DNA of 64,000 nt from a phage. Location: sequence record PZ452606.1, one strand, 5' to 3'. The notes below the pieces were generated by a model, which saw only the letters and a program-made list of their open reading frames with translations, searched no databases and had not been told where the DNA came from. Shown here piece by piece: positions 2,653 through 54,700 of this stretch (its first letter is position 1; every line of letters starts with the position of its first letter). Position numbers and translations under genes: made by a program.

Positions 2653-4277
<1,625 letters not shown>

Positions 4278-5610: not shown

Positions 5611-6420
5611 ATGCTTAAAGAACAACTGATTGCCGAAGCGCAGAAAATTGATGCTTCCGTTGCTCTTGATAGTATTTTCGAATCAGTTAATATTTCTCCG
5701 GAAGCAAAAGAAACTTTCGGCACTGTATTCGAAGCTACCGTCAAGCAGCACGCCGTTAAATTAGCTGAATCTCATATCGCTAAAATTGCTGAAAAAGCAG
5801 AAGAAGAAGTAGAAAAAAATAAAGAAGAAGCAGAAGAAAAAGCTGAGAAGAAAATCGCTGAGCAAGCTTCTAAATTCCTTGACCATCTTGCAAAAGAATG
5901 GCTCACTGAAAATAAATTAGCAGTAGATAAAGGCATCAAAGCCGAACTGTTTGAATCCATGCTTGGTGGATTGAAAGAGCTCTTCGTTGAACACAACGTT
6001 GTTGTTCCAGAAGAATCAGTTGATGTTGTAGCTGAAATGGAAGAAGAACTGCAAGAACACAAAGAAGAATCAGCTCGTCTGTTCGAAGAACTCAATAAGC
6101 GTGACGCATATATCAATTATGTGCAGCGTGAAGTGGCATTGAGCGAAAGTACTAAAGATCTGACTGAGTCTCAAAAAGAAAAAGTCTCTGCTCTGGTCGA
6201 AGGTATTGATTATTCAGATGCATTCTCAAGCAAATTGAGTGCCATCGTAGAAATGGTGAAGAAATCTAATAAAGATGAAAGCACTATTACTGAGAGTATA
6301 AATACTCCTGATACTGAAGCAGCCGGACTGAATTTCGTCACTGAAGCTGTAGAAGATAAATCTGCACAAGGTGCAGAAGATATTGTAAGTGTATATGCGA
6401 AAGTCGCATCTCGTTTCTAA
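5611..6420 (+). CDS. 22: prohead core scaffold protein gp22
   Basis: 269-aa ORF, Glu/Lys-rich coiled-coil composition, position between 21 and 23. Confidence 0.9.
   Translation: MLKEQLIAEAQKIDASVALDSIFESVNISPEAKETFGTVFEATVKQHAVKLAESHIAKIAEKAEEEVEKNKEEAEEKAEKKIAEQASKFLDHLAKEWLTENKLAVDKGIKAELFESMLGGLKELFVEHNVVVPEESVDVVAEMEEELQEHKEESARLFEELNKRDAYINYVQREVALSESTKDLTESQKEKVSALVEGIDYSDAFSSKLSAIVEMVKKSNKDESTITESINTPDTEAAGLNFVTEAVEDKSAQGAEDIVSVYAKVASRF
6297..6304 (+). promoter_or_regulatory. T4-type late promoter for gene 23 (inside 3' end of gene 22)
   Basis: Exact TATAAATA ~135 nt upstream of the gene 23 ATG. Confidence 0.6.
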
Positions 6421-44851: not shown

Positions 44852-45712
44852 TTACACCGCCATTTTTCCTTTAATTGGCAGATGAGATACATAGTTGTTA
44901 AGAACAAAATTATGAGGCTTTGCAAATTGACTCAACCAAAATACCTGCGATTCTGTGTCCCATTCATCAAATTCATCTGGAAATTTTAATTGTAATTCGC
45001 ATAAATCCATAGGTTCACGACGTAAAATTTCTTTACATTGTTCTACGTGATTCATATAGATATGAGTATTACCACCAGAAAATATCAAATCTCCAGGAAT
45101 AAGATTACACATTTTAGCTACAATATGAACTAACGTAGCATATGATGCAATATTAAATGGAAGACCGAGGAAAACATCTACCGAACGTTGATACCACTGC
45201 AAATCTAAATAGCCATTACGCACATTAAACTGATAGAACATATGACAAGGCGGTAATGCCATATATTTAAGTTCAGCTGGATTCCACGCAGAAACAATTT
45301 GACGCCTATCATTTGGCAGTTTTTTAATACGATCAACAACTTCTATAATTTGGTCTACACCGCCAAAATCACGCCACTGTTTTCCATAAATTGGACCAAG
45401 TTCACCGCTATGATATCCTAAATCTTTTGCCTGATTTTCGTAATTTTCATCCCAGACTGTTTTGCCTTGGATTAACGAATCGTGTTGAATTAATCGTAAA
45501 TCATTGACATTTGTGCTTCCTGATAAAAACCATATTAGCTCAGCAATGCATGCATTCCAGGCGAGCTTTTTAGTTGTTACTGCAGGAAAGCCTTTAGTTA
45601 AATCCCAACGCAATTTAGTACCGAACAGAGCAATTGTTCCTGTGCCTGTGCGATCATCGGTTTCATAGCCATTTTCAAAAATGTCTTTAATTAAATCTTG
45701 GTATTGTTTCAT
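44852..45712 (-). CDS. td: thymidylate synthase (uninterrupted)
   Basis: 286-aa continuous ORF; TS motifs (PPCH active-site Cys region [11 protein letters not shown]); no group I intron. Confidence 0.95.
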
Positions 45713-45757
45713 TTAGTACCTTATATAAATTATAATACATTTTATGAAGCTAAATAA

Positions 45758-46105
45758 TCAATACGGTTTAGCATCAAATTTTCTCTCAATTTCAGGTGTG
45801 AAATATAATTCTTTACCGCGTTTGGAAAAGCGACCAATAATATGATAATTATTCTCATCAAACGTAATATTACCAATATCCATAGCTTTCAACCAAATAT
45901 CGATATTTCTATCCAGCTTTATGTCAAAATTCCAATACGGAGAACTATTACCAAAAATACTACAAGCGGATTCAGTGAAACAGCTACTATAAATCTTGTC
46001 TTTAGGAACTACTAATTGATAGACACCTTTAATAAACTGAGGACCTTGCCATTTTGGCTGTTTCGCGTCTTTTTCTAATAGAATAGGATAATAATTAAAA
46101 TTCAT
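45758..46105 (-). CDS. hypothetical protein inserted between frd and td
   Basis: Track ORF 45758-46117 begins at GTG; first ATG at 46105 gives 115 aa (MNFNYYPILLEKDAKQPKWQG...); no recognisable motif. Confidence 0.5.
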   Translation of the reverse strand: MNFNYYPILLEKDAKQPKWQGPQFIKGVYQLVVPKDKIYSSCFTESACSIFGNSSPYWNFDIKLDRNIDIWLKAMDIGNITFDENNYHIIGRFSKRGKELYFTPEIERKFDAKPY

Positions 46106-46125
46106 ATTTTCCGCCACGCGTTATT

Positions 46126-46952
<827 letters not shown>

Positions 46953-46963
46953 ATTATCTCCTA

Positions 46964-47296
46964 TTAAAAAGGATCAGGAACATATCCGCTAGCTTTAATC
47001 ATTTTAATTAACGTTAACATTCCTTTGTTAACTGCTCGTGAGATTTCATCAAAAACTTCATCACTAAAAAGTTCTAACACGCCCTTCTGAACTTTTAATT
47101 TACAGCCAACAATTTCTTCATCGCCTATAGTAAATTCATTACCACCAATTCCACCGAAAAACTTAATTACACCAGTTAACTGTCTTCCACGAGAATATGG
47201 GTCGTGTGATAAAGTAATATGAGTCACCCCGGGTACAGTTTTAAATTGGCAGCGAATATTTACTTGTGAAATTCCAGTTACATGAATGTCAGACAT
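46964..47296 (-). CDS. hypothetical protein (frd.2 position)
   Basis: 110-aa ORF. Confidence 0.55.
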   Translation of the reverse strand: MSDIHVTGISQVNIRCQFKTVPGVTHITLSHDPYSRGRQLTGVIKFFGGIGGNEFTIGDEEIVGCKLKVQKGVLELFSDEVFDEISRAVNKGMLTLIKMIKASGYVPDPF

Positions 47297-51761: not shown

Positions 51762-54700
51762 ATGGCCGAGATTAAAAGAAAGTTCAGAGCAGAAGATGGT
51801 CTGGACGCAGGTGGTGATAAAATAATCAACGTAGCTTTAGCTGATCGTGCCGTAGGAACTGACGGTGTTAACGTTGATTACTTAATTCAAGAAAACACAG
51901 TTCAACAATACGATCCAACTCGTGGATATTTAAAAGATTTTGTAATCATTTATGATAACCGCTTTTGGGCTGCTATAAATGATATTCCAAAACCGGCAGG
52001 AGCTTTTAATAGCGGACGCTGGAGAGCATTACGTACCGATGCTAACTGGATTACGGTTTCATCTGGTTCATATCAATTAAAATCTGGTGAAGCTATTTCG
52101 GTTAACACCGCAGCTGGTAATGATATTACATTTACTTTACCATCTACCCCAATTGACGGTGATACTATCGTTCTCCAAGATATTGGAGGAAAACCTGGAG
52201 TTAACCAAGTTTTAATTGTAGCTCCAGTGCAAAGTATTGTAAACTTCAGAGGTCAACAAGTACGTTCAGTACTAATGACTCATCCAAAATCGCAGATAGT
52301 TTTAATTTTTAGTAATCGTCTGTGGCAAATGTATGTTGCCGATTATAGTAGAGAAGCTGTCGTTGTAACACCAGCAAGTCTCTATCAGGCGCAATCTAAT
52401 GATTTTATCGTACGTAGATTTACTTCTGCTGCACCAATTAATGTTAAACTTCCAAGATTTGCTAATCATGGCGATATTATTAATTTCGTTGATTTAGATA
52501 AACTGAATCCACTTTATCATACAATTGTTACTACATACGATGAAACGACTTCAGTACAAGAAGTTGGAACTCATTCCATTGAAGGCCGTACATCAATTGA
52601 CGGTTTCTTGATGTTTGATGATAATGAGAAATTGTGGAGATTGTTTGACGGGGATAGTAAAGCACGTTTACGCATTATAACGACTAATTCTAATATTCGT
52701 CCAAACGAAGAAGTCATGGTATTTGGTGCGAATAACGGAACAACTCAAACAATTGAACTTCAGCTTCCAACTAATATTTCTGTTGGTGATACTGTTAAAA
52801 TTTCCATGAATTACATGAGAAAAGGACAAACAGTTAAAATCAAAGCTGCCGGTGAAGATAAAATTGCTTCTTCGGTTCAATTGTTGCAATTCCCAAAACG
52901 CTCAGAATATCCGCCTGAAGCTGAATGGGTTACAGTCCAAGAATTAGTTTTTAACGGTGAAACTAATTATGTTCCAGTTTTGCAACTTGCTTACATAGAA
53001 GATTCTGATGGAAAATATTGGGTTGTACAGCAAAACGTTCCAACTGTAGAAAGAGTAGACTCTTTAAATGATTCCACTAGAGCAAGATTAGGCGTAATTG
53101 CTTTAGCTACACAAGCTCAAGCTAACGTCGATTTAGAAAATTCTCCACAAAAAGAATTAGCAATTACTCCAGAAACATTAGCTAACCGTACTGCTACAGA
53201 AACTCGTAGAGGTATCGCAAGAATAGCAACTACTGCTCAAGTGAATCAGAACACCACATTCTCTTTTGCTGATGATATTATCATCACTCCTAAAAAGCTG
53301 AATGAAAGAACTGCTACAGAAACTCGCAGAGGTGTTGCAGAAATTGCTACTCAGCAAGAAACAAACGCAGGAACAGATGATACTACAATCATTACTCCTA
53401 AAAAGCTTCAAGCTCGTCAAGGTTCTGAATCATTATCCGGTATTGTAACTTTTGTATCTACTGCAAGTGCTACTCCAGCTTCTAGCCGTGAATTAAATGG
53501 TACGAATGTTTATAATAAAAACACTAATAATTTAGTTGTTTCACCTAAAGCTTTGGATCAGTATAAAGCTACTCCAACGCAGCAAGGTGCAGTAATTTTA
53601 GCAGTTGAAAGTGAAGTAATTGCTGGACAAAGTCAGGAAGGATGGGCAAATGCTGTTGTAACGCCAGAAACGTTACATAAAAAGACATCAACTGATGGAA
53701 GAATTGGTTTAATTGAAATTGCTACGCAAAGTGAAGTTAATACAGGAACTGATTATACTCGTGCAGTCACTCCTAAAACTTTAAATGACCGTAGAGCAAC
53801 TGAAAGTTTAAGTGGTATAGCTGAAATTGCTACACAAGTTGAATTCGACGCAGGCGTCGACGATACTCGTATCTCTACACCATTAAAAATTAAAACCAGA
53901 TTTAATAGTACTGATCGTACTTCTGTTGTTGCTCTATCTGGATTAGTTGAATCAGGAACTCTCTGGGACCATTATACCCTTAATATTCTTGAAGCAAATG
54001 AGACACAGCGTGGTACACTTCGTGTAGCTACACAGGTCGAAGCTGCTGCAGGAACATTAGATAATGTTTTAATAACTCCTAAAAAGCTTTTAGGTACTAA
54101 ATCTACCGAAGCACAAGAAGGTGTTATTAAAGTTGCAACCCAGTCTGAAACCGTAGCTGGAACATCAGCAAATACTGCTGTATCTCCAAAAAATTTAAAA
54201 TGGATTGTGCAGAGTGAACCTACTTGGGCAGCTACTACTGCAATAAGAGGTTTTGTTAAAACTTCATCTGGTTCAATTACATTCGTTGGTAATGATACAG
54301 TCGGTTCTACCCAAGATTTAGAACTATATGAGAAAAATAGCTATGCAGTATCACCATATGAATTAAACCGTGTATTAGCAAATTATTTGCCGTTAAAAGC
54401 AAAAGCTGCTGATACAAATTTATTGGATGGTCTAGATTCATCTCAGTTCATTCGTAGGGATATTGCACAGACGGTTAATGGTTCACTAACCTTAACCCAA
54501 CAAACGAATCTGAGTGCCCCTCTTGTATCATCTAGTACTGCTACGTTTGGTGGTTCAGTTTCGGCAAATAGTACATTAACTATTTCTAATACTGGAACGG
54601 CAACTCGTCTGATTTTTGAGAAAGGACCTCAAACTGGAACTAACCCAGCACAGACGATGACTATCAGAGTTTGGGGAAATCAGTTTGGTGGTGGATCAGA

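What the first reader, a model, noticed from the sequence alone, without database searches (positions are those of the whole stretch)
45713..46125. ORF-bearing insertion between frd and td, which overlap in T4
In T4 the frd stop and td start overlap (established by the original sequencing). Here ~410 bp separate them and contain a 115-119-aa minus-strand ORF with no motif I can recognise, plus promoter-like elements upstream of td (TAGCTTCA MotA-box-like, then TATAAT). This looks like a moron-type accessory insertion into an otherwise tightly coupled pair.
Basis: partly seen in the sequence, partly recalled or inferred. Interest (0 to 1): 0.5.

Follow-up and report, generated by a model that had tools for sequence, protein, structure and literature searches.

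The report
Small conserved gene between frd and td
The gap between the dihydrofolate-reductase and thymidylate-synthase genes holds a real, strongly conserved small gene of unknown function that most T4-type phages (T2, T6 and hundreds more) carry and T4 lacks, so it is an ordinary, already-annotated gene whose history is interesting.

Summary
In the window 413 nt separate the frd stop from the td start, and they contain a 115-aa minus-strand ORF (45758-46105). In T4 the two genes overlap by ATGA.

The ORF is not peculiar to this genome. It is "RB32ORF229c" (phrog_1928), annotated as a hypothetical protein in T2-type, T6, RB32, AR1 and about 360 phage records, roughly 70% of Tequatrovirus.

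It is a genuine gene. dN/dS is about 0-0.08 at dS up to 0.33, and AlphaFold gives pLDDT 91. It has no Pfam, NCBIfam, PADLOC or PDB relative, and the "homing endonuclease" label found in a few records has no support.

Homologues, often with a tandem paralogue, occupy the same frd-td slot in at least eight other Tevenvirinae genera, usually with overlapping stop/start codons.

The Tequatrovirus allele nests inside a Kanagawavirus-like clade (bootstrap 296/300 and 291/300). This conflicts with Frd and Td, whose nearest relatives (RB69, JS98) lack the ORF. The 417-bp cassette is bounded by a 9-bp perfect (11/12) repeat of the frd-stop/td-start junction.

Best reading: an old lateral (re)acquisition into the slot, with T4 holding the empty or excised site. 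The invariant 45-nt spacer probably supplies td's ribosome-binding site and perhaps a promoter. Protein function is unknown.

The parts
46126..46707 (-). frd (dihydrofolate reductase, 193 aa). Its TGA stop at 46128-46126 is overlapped by an ATG (ATGA), as in T4.
   Evidence: Pfam PF00186 at 3.4e-19. 98% identical to T4 Frd.
46121..46132 (-). Left copy of the direct repeat, TAAATGAAATAA. It comprises the end of frd plus a dead 2-codon copy of the td start (ATG AAA TAA). The 9-mer TAAATGAAA is perfect.
   Evidence: Conserved in all 8 cassette-bearing genomes.
46106..46125 (-). 20-nt leader carrying an SD-like GGCGGA 5-6 nt before the ORF ATG. Non-coding: it has a 1-nt indel polymorphism. Its 3' part resembles the frd tail of L011/L012.
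   Evidence: 1 of 20 sites variable, plus the indel.
45758..46105 (-). 115-aa ORF (RB32ORF229c / phrog_1928 family), 13.6 kDa, pI 8.5, soluble.
   Evidence: phrog_1928 at 9.5e-36. dN/dS 0-0.08. AF2 pLDDT 90.7, pTM 0.84. Exact sequence found on 341 public contigs.
45713..45757 (-). Invariant 45-nt spacer. It contains the td Shine-Dalgarno AAGG (45722-45719), TATAAT (45734-45729), a MotA-box-like AGCTTCA (45751-45745) and a sigma70-like TTGATT-N18-TATTAT (45761-45732).
   Evidence: 0 of 45 variable sites in 8 genomes, against 26 of 116 at ORF third positions..
45704..45715 (-). Right copy of the direct repeat, TAAATGAAACAA, containing the functional td start. It lies 417 nt from the left copy.
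44852..45712 (-). td (thymidylate synthase, 286 aa, intronless).
   Evidence: Pfam PF00303 at 1.2e-92.

Best explanation
The interval holds a real small accessory gene. It belongs to an orphan protein family (phrog_1928, 'RB32ORF229c') whose only known home is the variable slot between frd and td of T4-type (Tevenvirinae) phages.

Anatomy in Tequatrovirus. The gene is part of a 417-bp cassette made of three pieces:
- a 20-nt leader with its own Shine-Dalgarno sequence;
- the 348-nt ORF;
- an invariant 45-nt spacer that gives td its own ribosome-binding site and possibly a promoter, replacing the ATGA stop/start coupling.
The cassette is bounded by a duplicated 9-12-bp copy of the frd-stop/td-start junction.

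Most likely history (inferred). The family is old in this slot across the subfamily. It was absent from the immediate ancestor of the T-even group, as in RB69 and JS98. It was then re-acquired early in Tequatrovirus from a Kanagawavirus-like phage. It has since persisted as a presence/absence polymorphism, with about 70% of genomes carrying it. T4 carries the empty site, or one excised by recombination within the 9-bp repeat.

The protein (shown). It is a strongly constrained, confidently folded beta-rich 13.6-kDa soluble protein without detectable enzyme motifs.

Likely function (inferred, low confidence). It acts by binding a partner as a dispensable accessory factor. It is probably co-expressed with the Frd/Td deoxynucleotide-synthesis module, because in most genera it is stop/start-coupled to both genes.
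For: Real gene:
- Codon-position pattern of variable sites is 4/3/26.
- dN/dS is 0-0.08 at dS up to 0.33.
- AF2 gives pLDDT 90.7 with a 45-sequence alignment.
- A profile search of 1.84e9 cluster representatives finds 42 hits, two of them repeat-protein artefacts and two short fragments; the rest are small (95-139 aa) proteins.

Slot-specific:
- In all 30 fetched loci with a family member, it lies directly between frd and td.
- There is a single copy in the 64-kb window.
- A tandem paralogue is confirmed by hhalign at 99%, E 2e-18.

Cassette and repeat:
- Searches show the 417-bp block and its flanking repeat.

Lateral origin (bootstrap):
- ORF tree: Tequatrovirus+L011/L012/P0005 296/300; adding Kanagawavirus 291/300.
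- Frd tree: Tequatrovirus+JS98+RB69 298/300; L011+L012+PEi26 293/300.
- Td tree: L011+PEi26+Entb_45 296/300.
- ORF identity window-L011 is 63%, above Frd at 49%. In every other pair the ORF is less conserved than Frd.
- RB69 has the T4-type junction with the same sequence, and JS98 lacks the ORF.

Old polymorphism of single local origin:
- td nucleotide 45 is C in every cassette-bearing genome examined and T in all 6 empty ones.
- The two types are otherwise intermixed in the flank trees.

Spacer constraint:
- 0 of 45 variable sites.
Against: Direction of the event within the genus is unresolved:
- A deletion between the 9-bp repeats in a cassette-bearing ancestor would give exactly the T4 junction.
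- The ATG that overlaps the frd stop is in frame with the ORF. In addition, the frd frame read through its TGA ends on a second TGA overlapping the ORF's ATG. Both could be relics of an older, vertically inherited coupled arrangement.
- At td nucleotide 45 the nearest outgroups share the state of the cassette-bearing type. Nucleotide 63 points the other way.

Direction of lateral transfer is inferred from nesting and context, not proven. Transfer from Tequatrovirus to the L011 group remains possible.

The promoter is not demonstrated. The MotA-like box is off-consensus, and promoter-like hits in the region are no more frequent than in shuffles.
Confidence: 0.7

Rival explanations
1. Vertical resident with secondary loss. 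The ORF was inherited vertically in Tequatrovirus from the Tevenvirinae ancestor. T4-type genomes, and independently RB69, lost it by deletion between short ATGA-containing repeats. There was no insertion event.
For: - The family sits in the same slot in at least 8 other genera.
- It is the majority state in the genus.
- ORF synonymous divergence (dS up to 0.33; nucleotide diversity 0.033) is of the same order as its flanks, so it is as old as the genus at this locus.
- The upstream ATG is in frame, and there is a read-through frd tail ending in ATGA on the ORF start.
- A 9-bp repeat is a classic substrate for T4 deletions (established knowledge of rII deletion endpoints).
- td nucleotide 45 polarity: RB69 and JS98 share C with the cassette-bearing type.
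Against: - Strongly supported incongruence between the ORF tree and the Frd/Td trees.
- The three-point distance argument (window-L011 37%, both to PEi26 57%) would need an implausibly short Tequatrovirus branch.
- The closest genera lack the ORF.
- An 11/12 match of the sequence after the frd stop to the td start is unexplained except by chance.
- Non-coding spacers replace the coupled overlaps seen everywhere else.
Confidence: 0.25
2. Free-standing homing endonuclease gene, as annotated in some BASEL-collection phages. It would spread by cleaving cassette-less genomes at the frd/td junction.
For: - Labelled 'putative homing endonuclease' in MZ501106, MZ501052, MZ501089 and MZ501046.
- Presence/absence polymorphism between two conserved genes, next to known homing elements (I-TevI in td, SegG near gene 32).
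- The +/- types are intermixed in the flank trees.
Against: - No GIY-YIG, HNH, LAGLIDADG, PD-(D/E)XK or other nuclease family in Pfam, NCBIfam or PHROGs.
- No PDB sequence or fold match.
- Only 115 aa.
- It is always in one slot, and in other genera it is stop/start-coupled to its neighbours, sometimes as tandem paralogues.
- Very strong purifying selection over the whole genus depth, unlike the decay cycle typical of HEGs.
- Mosaic breakpoints do not coincide with the cassette edges.
- All other sources call it hypothetical.
Confidence: 0.03
3. Non-functional ORF, or one kept only as a spacer. The interval's real role would be regulatory (a promoter or ribosome-binding site for td), and the ORF would be incidental.
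For: The 45-nt spacer is more conserved than the ORF. T4 does without the ORF.
Against: - dN/dS 0-0.08, with 17 synonymous and 0 non-synonymous changes between the window and T2.
- Protein homologues at 26-47% identity retain invariant residues (W19, G91, K95, G97).
- The fold is predicted with confidence.
Confidence: 0.02

Closest known systems
RB32ORF229c / PHROG phrog_1928 (hypothetical protein annotated between frd and td in T6, RB32, RB51, RB14, AR1, wV7, PST and others)
   Same: Same gene. The protein is 97-100% identical and occupies the same position.
   Different: Nothing differs. The family has no assigned function, and the T2 record AY310907 left it unannotated.
PeSL-mediated modular shuffling and 'mini-circles' in T4-type phages (Arbiol et al. 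2010, PMC2839356)
   Same: - A single ORFan is present or absent between two conserved genes.
- It is flanked by direct repeats that include the stop codon, promoter-like hexamers, SD and start codon.
- Excision and insertion through the repeat would be reversible, which explains both junction types (against 27, 51).
   Different: - The repeat here is only 9-12 bp (a translation-start junction), not a roughly 100-bp PeSL.
- There is no G/C-rich stem-loop terminator.
- The locus is in the nucleotide-metabolism cluster, not a classical hyperplastic region.
Morons of lambdoid phages (an extra gene with its own promoter and terminator between genes that are adjacent in relatives)
   Same: An extra, dispensable gene lies between two genes that are adjacent in relatives (T4, RB69).
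   Different: - No promoter upstream of the ORF and no terminator downstream.
- GC3 equals that of its neighbours.
- This is a lytic phage.
- The family is native to this slot elsewhere.
Free-standing homing endonuclease genes of T4 (seg and mob genes)
   Same: Intergenic presence/absence polymorphism among close relatives.
   Different: No nuclease motif or fold, a small protein, a single conserved location, and strong purifying selection.
T4 MotA-dependent middle promoters
   Same: A GCTTCA core lies upstream of a TAnnnT -10 element, in the right place to drive a prereplicative gene.
   Different: The core reads AGCTTCA rather than TGCTTYA. It is 10 nt from TATAAT (12 nt from TAATTT). Four strict-consensus sites exist elsewhere in the window, but this is not one of them.

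Membership tests
phrog_1928 / RB32ORF229c family | Significant full-length sequence similarity to the family profile | tested here: met
   hmmscan E 9.5e-36 over residues 8-115. tblastn gives 97-100% identity to T2, T6, RB14, AR1 and others.
phrog_1928 / RB32ORF229c family | Position immediately downstream of frd and upstream of td | tested here: met
   True for the window and for all 30 fetched loci that carry a member.
Homing endonuclease (free-standing HEG) | Recognisable nuclease domain (GIY-YIG, HNH, LAGLIDADG, PD-(D/E)XK, EDxHD) | tested here: not met
Homing endonuclease (free-standing HEG) | Sporadic distribution with occurrence at different genomic sites | tested here: not met
   It is always in the frd-td slot. 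One copy per genome (places_in_record = 1 in every listed record).
Homing endonuclease (free-standing HEG) | Site-specific cleavage of the cassette-less allele and biased inheritance | not testable with these tools
   Needs biochemistry or phage crosses.
Moron | The flanking genes are adjacent in related phages | tested here: met
   T4 and RB69 have frd and td overlapping by ATGA.
Moron | Own promoter upstream and own terminator downstream of the extra gene | tested here: not met
   The scan reports no promoter-like site ending in the 20-nt leader upstream of the ORF. No terminator-like site lies between the ORF and td.
Moron | Base composition distinct from its neighbours | tested here: not met
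   GC3 is 25.0%, against 25.1% for td and 26.3% for frd. Overall GC is 31.3%, the 7.8th percentile of same-size windows.
PeSL regulatory cassette (Arbiol et al. 2010) | Strong sigma70-like -35/-10 with an AT-rich upstream region, between stop codon and SD/start | tested here: inconclusive
   TTGATT-N18-TATTAT matches 9 of 12 positions. Such matches are no more frequent in the region than in shuffles (9 found against 12.2 expected).
PeSL regulatory cassette (Arbiol et al. 2010) | Stable stem-loop (often polyG/polyC) acting as a terminator | tested here: not met
   No terminator-like hairpin. The RNA fold is -10.7 kcal/mol with z = -1.34.
MotA-dependent middle promoter | MotA box (a/t)(a/t)(a/t)TGCTT(t/c)A placed 11-13 bp upstream of a TAnnnT -10 element | tested here: not met
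   The site reads ATTTAGCTTCA, then 10 nt, then TATAAT. It is found only with a relaxed pattern (13 minus-strand sites against about 4 expected by shuffling).

The most novel reading that the evidence does not exclude
The family is a dedicated third partner of the phage DHFR-thymidylate synthase module with a previously undescribed fold. It could be an adaptor or regulator that binds Frd/Td or a host nucleotide-pool enzyme or defence protein. It would be kept stop/start-coupled to both genes in most T4-type genera, duplicated in tandem in several, and exchanged laterally as a cassette through the conserved frd-stop/td-start junction. T4 would then be a natural knockout.
Probability: 0.2. Interest if true: 0.6.

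Novelty: already known. Interest (0 to 1): 0.3.

Why it matters
It corrects a T4-centric view. The textbook frd/td overlap is the minority arrangement in T4's own genus. The slot normally holds one to three small genes.

The gene is one of the many uncharacterised but strongly selected small early genes of T-even phages. T4 versus T2/T6 offers a ready-made natural knockout for testing its role, for example in dNTP supply or host range.

The cassette also gives a clean example of gene gain and loss at a duplicated translation-start junction, with a traceable donor lineage.

None of this changes current understanding in a major way unless a function linked to the Frd/Td module is found.

Tried and rejected
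- Homing endonuclease. Rejected: no motif, no fold match, a fixed location, and strong purifying selection.
- Cassette-edge recombination. I checked whether mosaic breakpoints in L020 (divergent frd) and L017/L018 (divergent td) coincide with the cassette edges. They do not.
- ORF2 remnant. The 'MLNRID' start inside the ORF's 3' end looks like the paralogue's start, but it is forced by the ORF's own conserved C-terminal coding, so it is not independent evidence.
- Mantel/Spearman correlation of ORF distances with Frd/Td distances. Uninformative, because the inter-genus phylogeny is star-like. It was superseded by the bootstrapped clade tests.
- RNA element in the spacer. No Rfam family and no significant structure.
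- Origin of the 45-nt spacer. No second copy in the window or in any non-Tequatrovirus locus.
- P0042 and P0044. These long proteins with multiple matches are repeat-protein artefacts.
- Literature searches by identifier. Nothing found.
- afdb50 fold library. Unavailable.
- Fold search with the better model. Blocked by the cap.
- Polarity of the indel from linked SNPs. Ambiguous.

Full report
**1. The observation**

The window is a Tequatrovirus-type (T-even) genome segment. On the minus strand it carries gene 32, frd.3-frd.1, frd (46126-46707), td (44852-45712, intronless), nrdA.2, nrdA.1 and nrdA.

The flagged interval 45713-46125 is exactly the 413 nt between the td ATG and the frd TGA. It contains a minus-strand ORF of 119 aa from GTG or 115 aa from the ATG at 46105.

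In the T4 reference, frd (145109-145690) and td (ending at 145112) overlap by ATGA with nothing between them. The words TAGCTTCA and TATAAT are present upstream of td.

**2. It is a real gene, and a common one**

Distribution:
- A 901-bp query across the interval matches 552 phage records, and 353 of them cover at least 80% of it. These include T6, RB51, AR1, wV7 and PST. The ORF is annotated as a hypothetical protein, "RB32ORF229c".
- tblastn finds the protein at 90% identity or more in 363 records. T4-type junction flanks match 515 records. So about 70% of the genus carries the ORF.
- T4 strains, RB55/59, HY03, SG1, G28 and FL12/18 do not carry it.
- The exact protein is on 341 public contigs, always labelled hypothetical.
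- The T2 record of 2003 left the ORF unannotated.

Evidence that it codes for a constrained protein:
- Among eight Tequatrovirus genomes the ORF has 33 variable sites, distributed 4/3/26 over codon positions 1/2/3.
- Window versus T2 shows 17 synonymous and 0 non-synonymous differences. dN/dS is 0-0.08 for pairs with dS of at least 0.1, and dS reaches 0.33.
- A 1-nt indel polymorphism in the 20-nt leader shows that the leader is non-coding and that the ATG at 46105 is the start.

**3. What the protein is**

- It matches only phrog_1928, whose function is unknown (E 9.5e-36).
- It has no match in Pfam, NCBIfam, PADLOC or PDB sequences, whether searched alone, as a 45-member profile, or member by member.
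- An exhaustive profile search of 1.84 billion cluster representatives finds only 42 hits. The genuine full-length members are 95-139 aa. The two long hits are repeat-protein artefacts.
- With a 12-sequence alignment AlphaFold gave pLDDT 76. With 45 sequences it gave pLDDT 90.7 and pTM 0.84: eight strands and one helix.
- Conserved residues are W19, G91, K95 and G97 (invariant), plus Q16, G27, Y29, F93 and F102. They form the motifs QKKW ... HG[IV]Y ... GRFxKxGxxxxF.
- The protein is 13.6 kDa with pI 8.5, and it is hydrophilic.
- Nothing supports the "putative homing endonuclease" label carried by four BASEL-collection records.

**4. The slot in other phages**

Homologues at 26-47% identity lie directly after frd and before td in these genera, with Winklervirus added:

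| Genus | Example |
|---|---|
| Jiaodavirus | Mineola |
| Kanagawavirus | PEi26, Entb_45 |
| Roskildevirus | Cronus |
| Gelderlandvirus | STML-198 |
| Moonvirus | Moon |
| Kagamiyamavirus | EcS1 |

The stop and start codons usually overlap. All 18 IMG/VR loci and the two Logan contigs L011 and L012 show the same placement. In 30 of 30 fetched loci with a member, it sits between frd and td.

Several genera carry a second ORF of 113-144 aa in the slot. It is a paralogue by hhalign (99%, E 2e-18). Some also carry a third ORF of about 69 aa. JS98 has that third ORF alone, unannotated. RB69 has a T4-type direct junction of the same sequence, GT(A/G)TATAAATGAAACAATACC. The frd-td slot is therefore a small variable region, and this family is its commonest tenant.

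**5. Anatomy of the Tequatrovirus cassette**

Relative to T4, the window has 417 extra bp. The boundaries are direct repeats:
- the left copy is TAAATGAAATAA (46132-46121);
- the right copy is TAAATGAAACAA (45715-45704);
- nine bases are perfect, and 11 of 12 match.

The left copy is the frd stop plus a dead two-codon copy of the td start (ATG AAA TAA). It is conserved in all eight cassette-bearing genomes.

Inside the cassette are three parts:
- a 20-nt leader with GGCGGA before the ORF ATG;
- the ORF;
- a 45-nt spacer carrying the td SD (AAGG) and promoter-like hexamers.

The spacer has 0 of 45 variable sites, against 26 of 116 at ORF third positions (P about 1e-5 at that rate). It is therefore functionally constrained.

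- The MotA-like box is off-consensus (AGCTTCA, with 10 nt to TATAAT). It is found only with a relaxed pattern, whereas four strict-consensus sites exist elsewhere in the window.
- Sigma70-like matches in the region are no more frequent than in shuffles, and there is no terminator.
- There is no significant RNA structure and no Rfam family.
- GC3 of the ORF equals that of its neighbours.

**6. Insertion or deletion?**

Evidence for lateral acquisition:
- In bootstrapped trees the ORF of Tequatrovirus groups with L011/L012/P0005 (296/300). That group falls inside a Kanagawavirus-like clade (291/300; with P0012, 300/300).
- Frd groups Tequatrovirus with JS98 and RB69 (298/300), and groups L011/L012 with PEi26 (293/300).
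- Td agrees, with L011+PEi26+Entb_45 at 296/300.
- The window-L011 pair is the only pair in which the ORF (63%) is more conserved than Frd (49%).
- L011 is an Enterobacter/Kosakonia-phage-like genome. Its ORF is natively coupled, with frd-ATGA-ORF and a 17-nt overlap with the paralogue. The Tequatrovirus copy instead sits between non-coding spacers.
- The closest genera lack the ORF, and the relic of the td start sits at the left edge.

Together these favour an early lateral (re)acquisition into a T4/RB69-type junction.

Evidence on the other side:
- A deletion between the 9-bp repeats would regenerate the T4 junction exactly.
- The ORF's synonymous divergence is as deep as that of its flanks.
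- The upstream ATG is in frame with the ORF.
- The frd frame read through its TGA ends on a TGA that overlaps the ORF ATG.

Evidence that does not decide the question:
- Cassette-bearing and empty genomes are intermixed in the frd and td trees.
- td nucleotide 45 is perfectly linked to junction type: C in every cassette-bearing genome examined and T in 6 of 6 empty ones. Each type therefore has a single local origin. Polarity from outgroups is ambiguous.

I conclude that lateral origin of the genus's allele is likely, at about 0.7. Whether T4's site is ancestral-empty or secondarily excised remains open. The PeSL mini-circle model of reversible excision and insertion between flanking repeats (PMC2839356) is the nearest published mechanism. 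Here, however, the repeat is only a 9-12-bp start junction, and there is no stem-loop.

**7. Function**

Shown: the gene encodes a strongly constrained, confidently folded, soluble small protein. It is dispensable in nature, since T4, RB69 and about 30% of the genus lack it. In most genera it is co-transcribed and stop/start-coupled with frd and td.

Inferred at low confidence: it is a non-enzymatic binding protein acting with the deoxynucleotide-synthesis module or on a host target. An unrelated host-takeover or anti-defence role is equally possible, although no PADLOC family matches it.

**8. Verdict**

It is wrong in implying something unusual for this genome or a classical moron. The feature is already annotated in hundreds of genomes. 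Interest is modest.

Noticed in passing
window 44852-45712 (-): td is intronless here, whereas T4, T6, HY03, SG1, G28 and FL18 carry the I-TevI intron. FL12 combines an intronless td with the T4-type junction, so the intron and the cassette assort independently.
   Followed up: partly
window 46707-46952 and 46964-47296 (-): Two further small ORFs (81 aa, equal to RB32ORF231c, and 110 aa) lie between frd and frd.1. They are absent from T4 but present in T6 and the BASEL phages. Phages with the T4-type junction (HY03, SG1, G28, FL12, FL18) keep the 81-aa ORF.
   Followed up: partly
L015 (JS98, NC_010105) 6217-6420 (-): An unannotated ORF of about 68 aa fills the 202-bp frd-td gap of JS98. It is 81% identical to the third slot ORF of L011 (3670-3879) and of Entb_45.
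   Followed up: partly
L005 2817-3173; L007 2809-3156; L008 2787-3134; L009 2814-3185; L011 3332-3673; L006 2059-2493: A tandem paralogue of the family (113-144 aa, with an extra 'PTIxxYKR' insert) sits beside the ORF in several genera. In Cronus it lies upstream of the ORF rather than downstream.
   Followed up: yes
window minus strand, 5' ends at 53999, 50860, 33537, 15581: Four strict MotA-box middle-promoter matches (WWWTGCTTYA-N11-13-TANNNT), against 0.23 expected per strand.
   Followed up: no
L019 and L020, about 5 nt before the ORF stop: A 2-nt deletion changes the ORF C-terminus from ...KPY* to ...KPLII*, running into the spacer. The extreme C-terminus is therefore not constrained.
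   Followed up: no
td nucleotide 45 (window 45668): This synonymous site is perfectly linked to junction type: C in every cassette-bearing genome examined and T in 6 of 6 cassette-less Tequatrovirus genomes.
   Followed up: partly
L013 (Entb_45) 2002-2516; L016 (RB49) 2871-4103; L038 (FL18): Annotation oddities. Entb_45 frd is annotated as a split pseudogene. RB49 td is annotated as 410 aa, with only its C-terminal part matching Td. FL18 is labelled Mosigvirus, yet its frd and td are about 96% T4-like.
   Followed up: no
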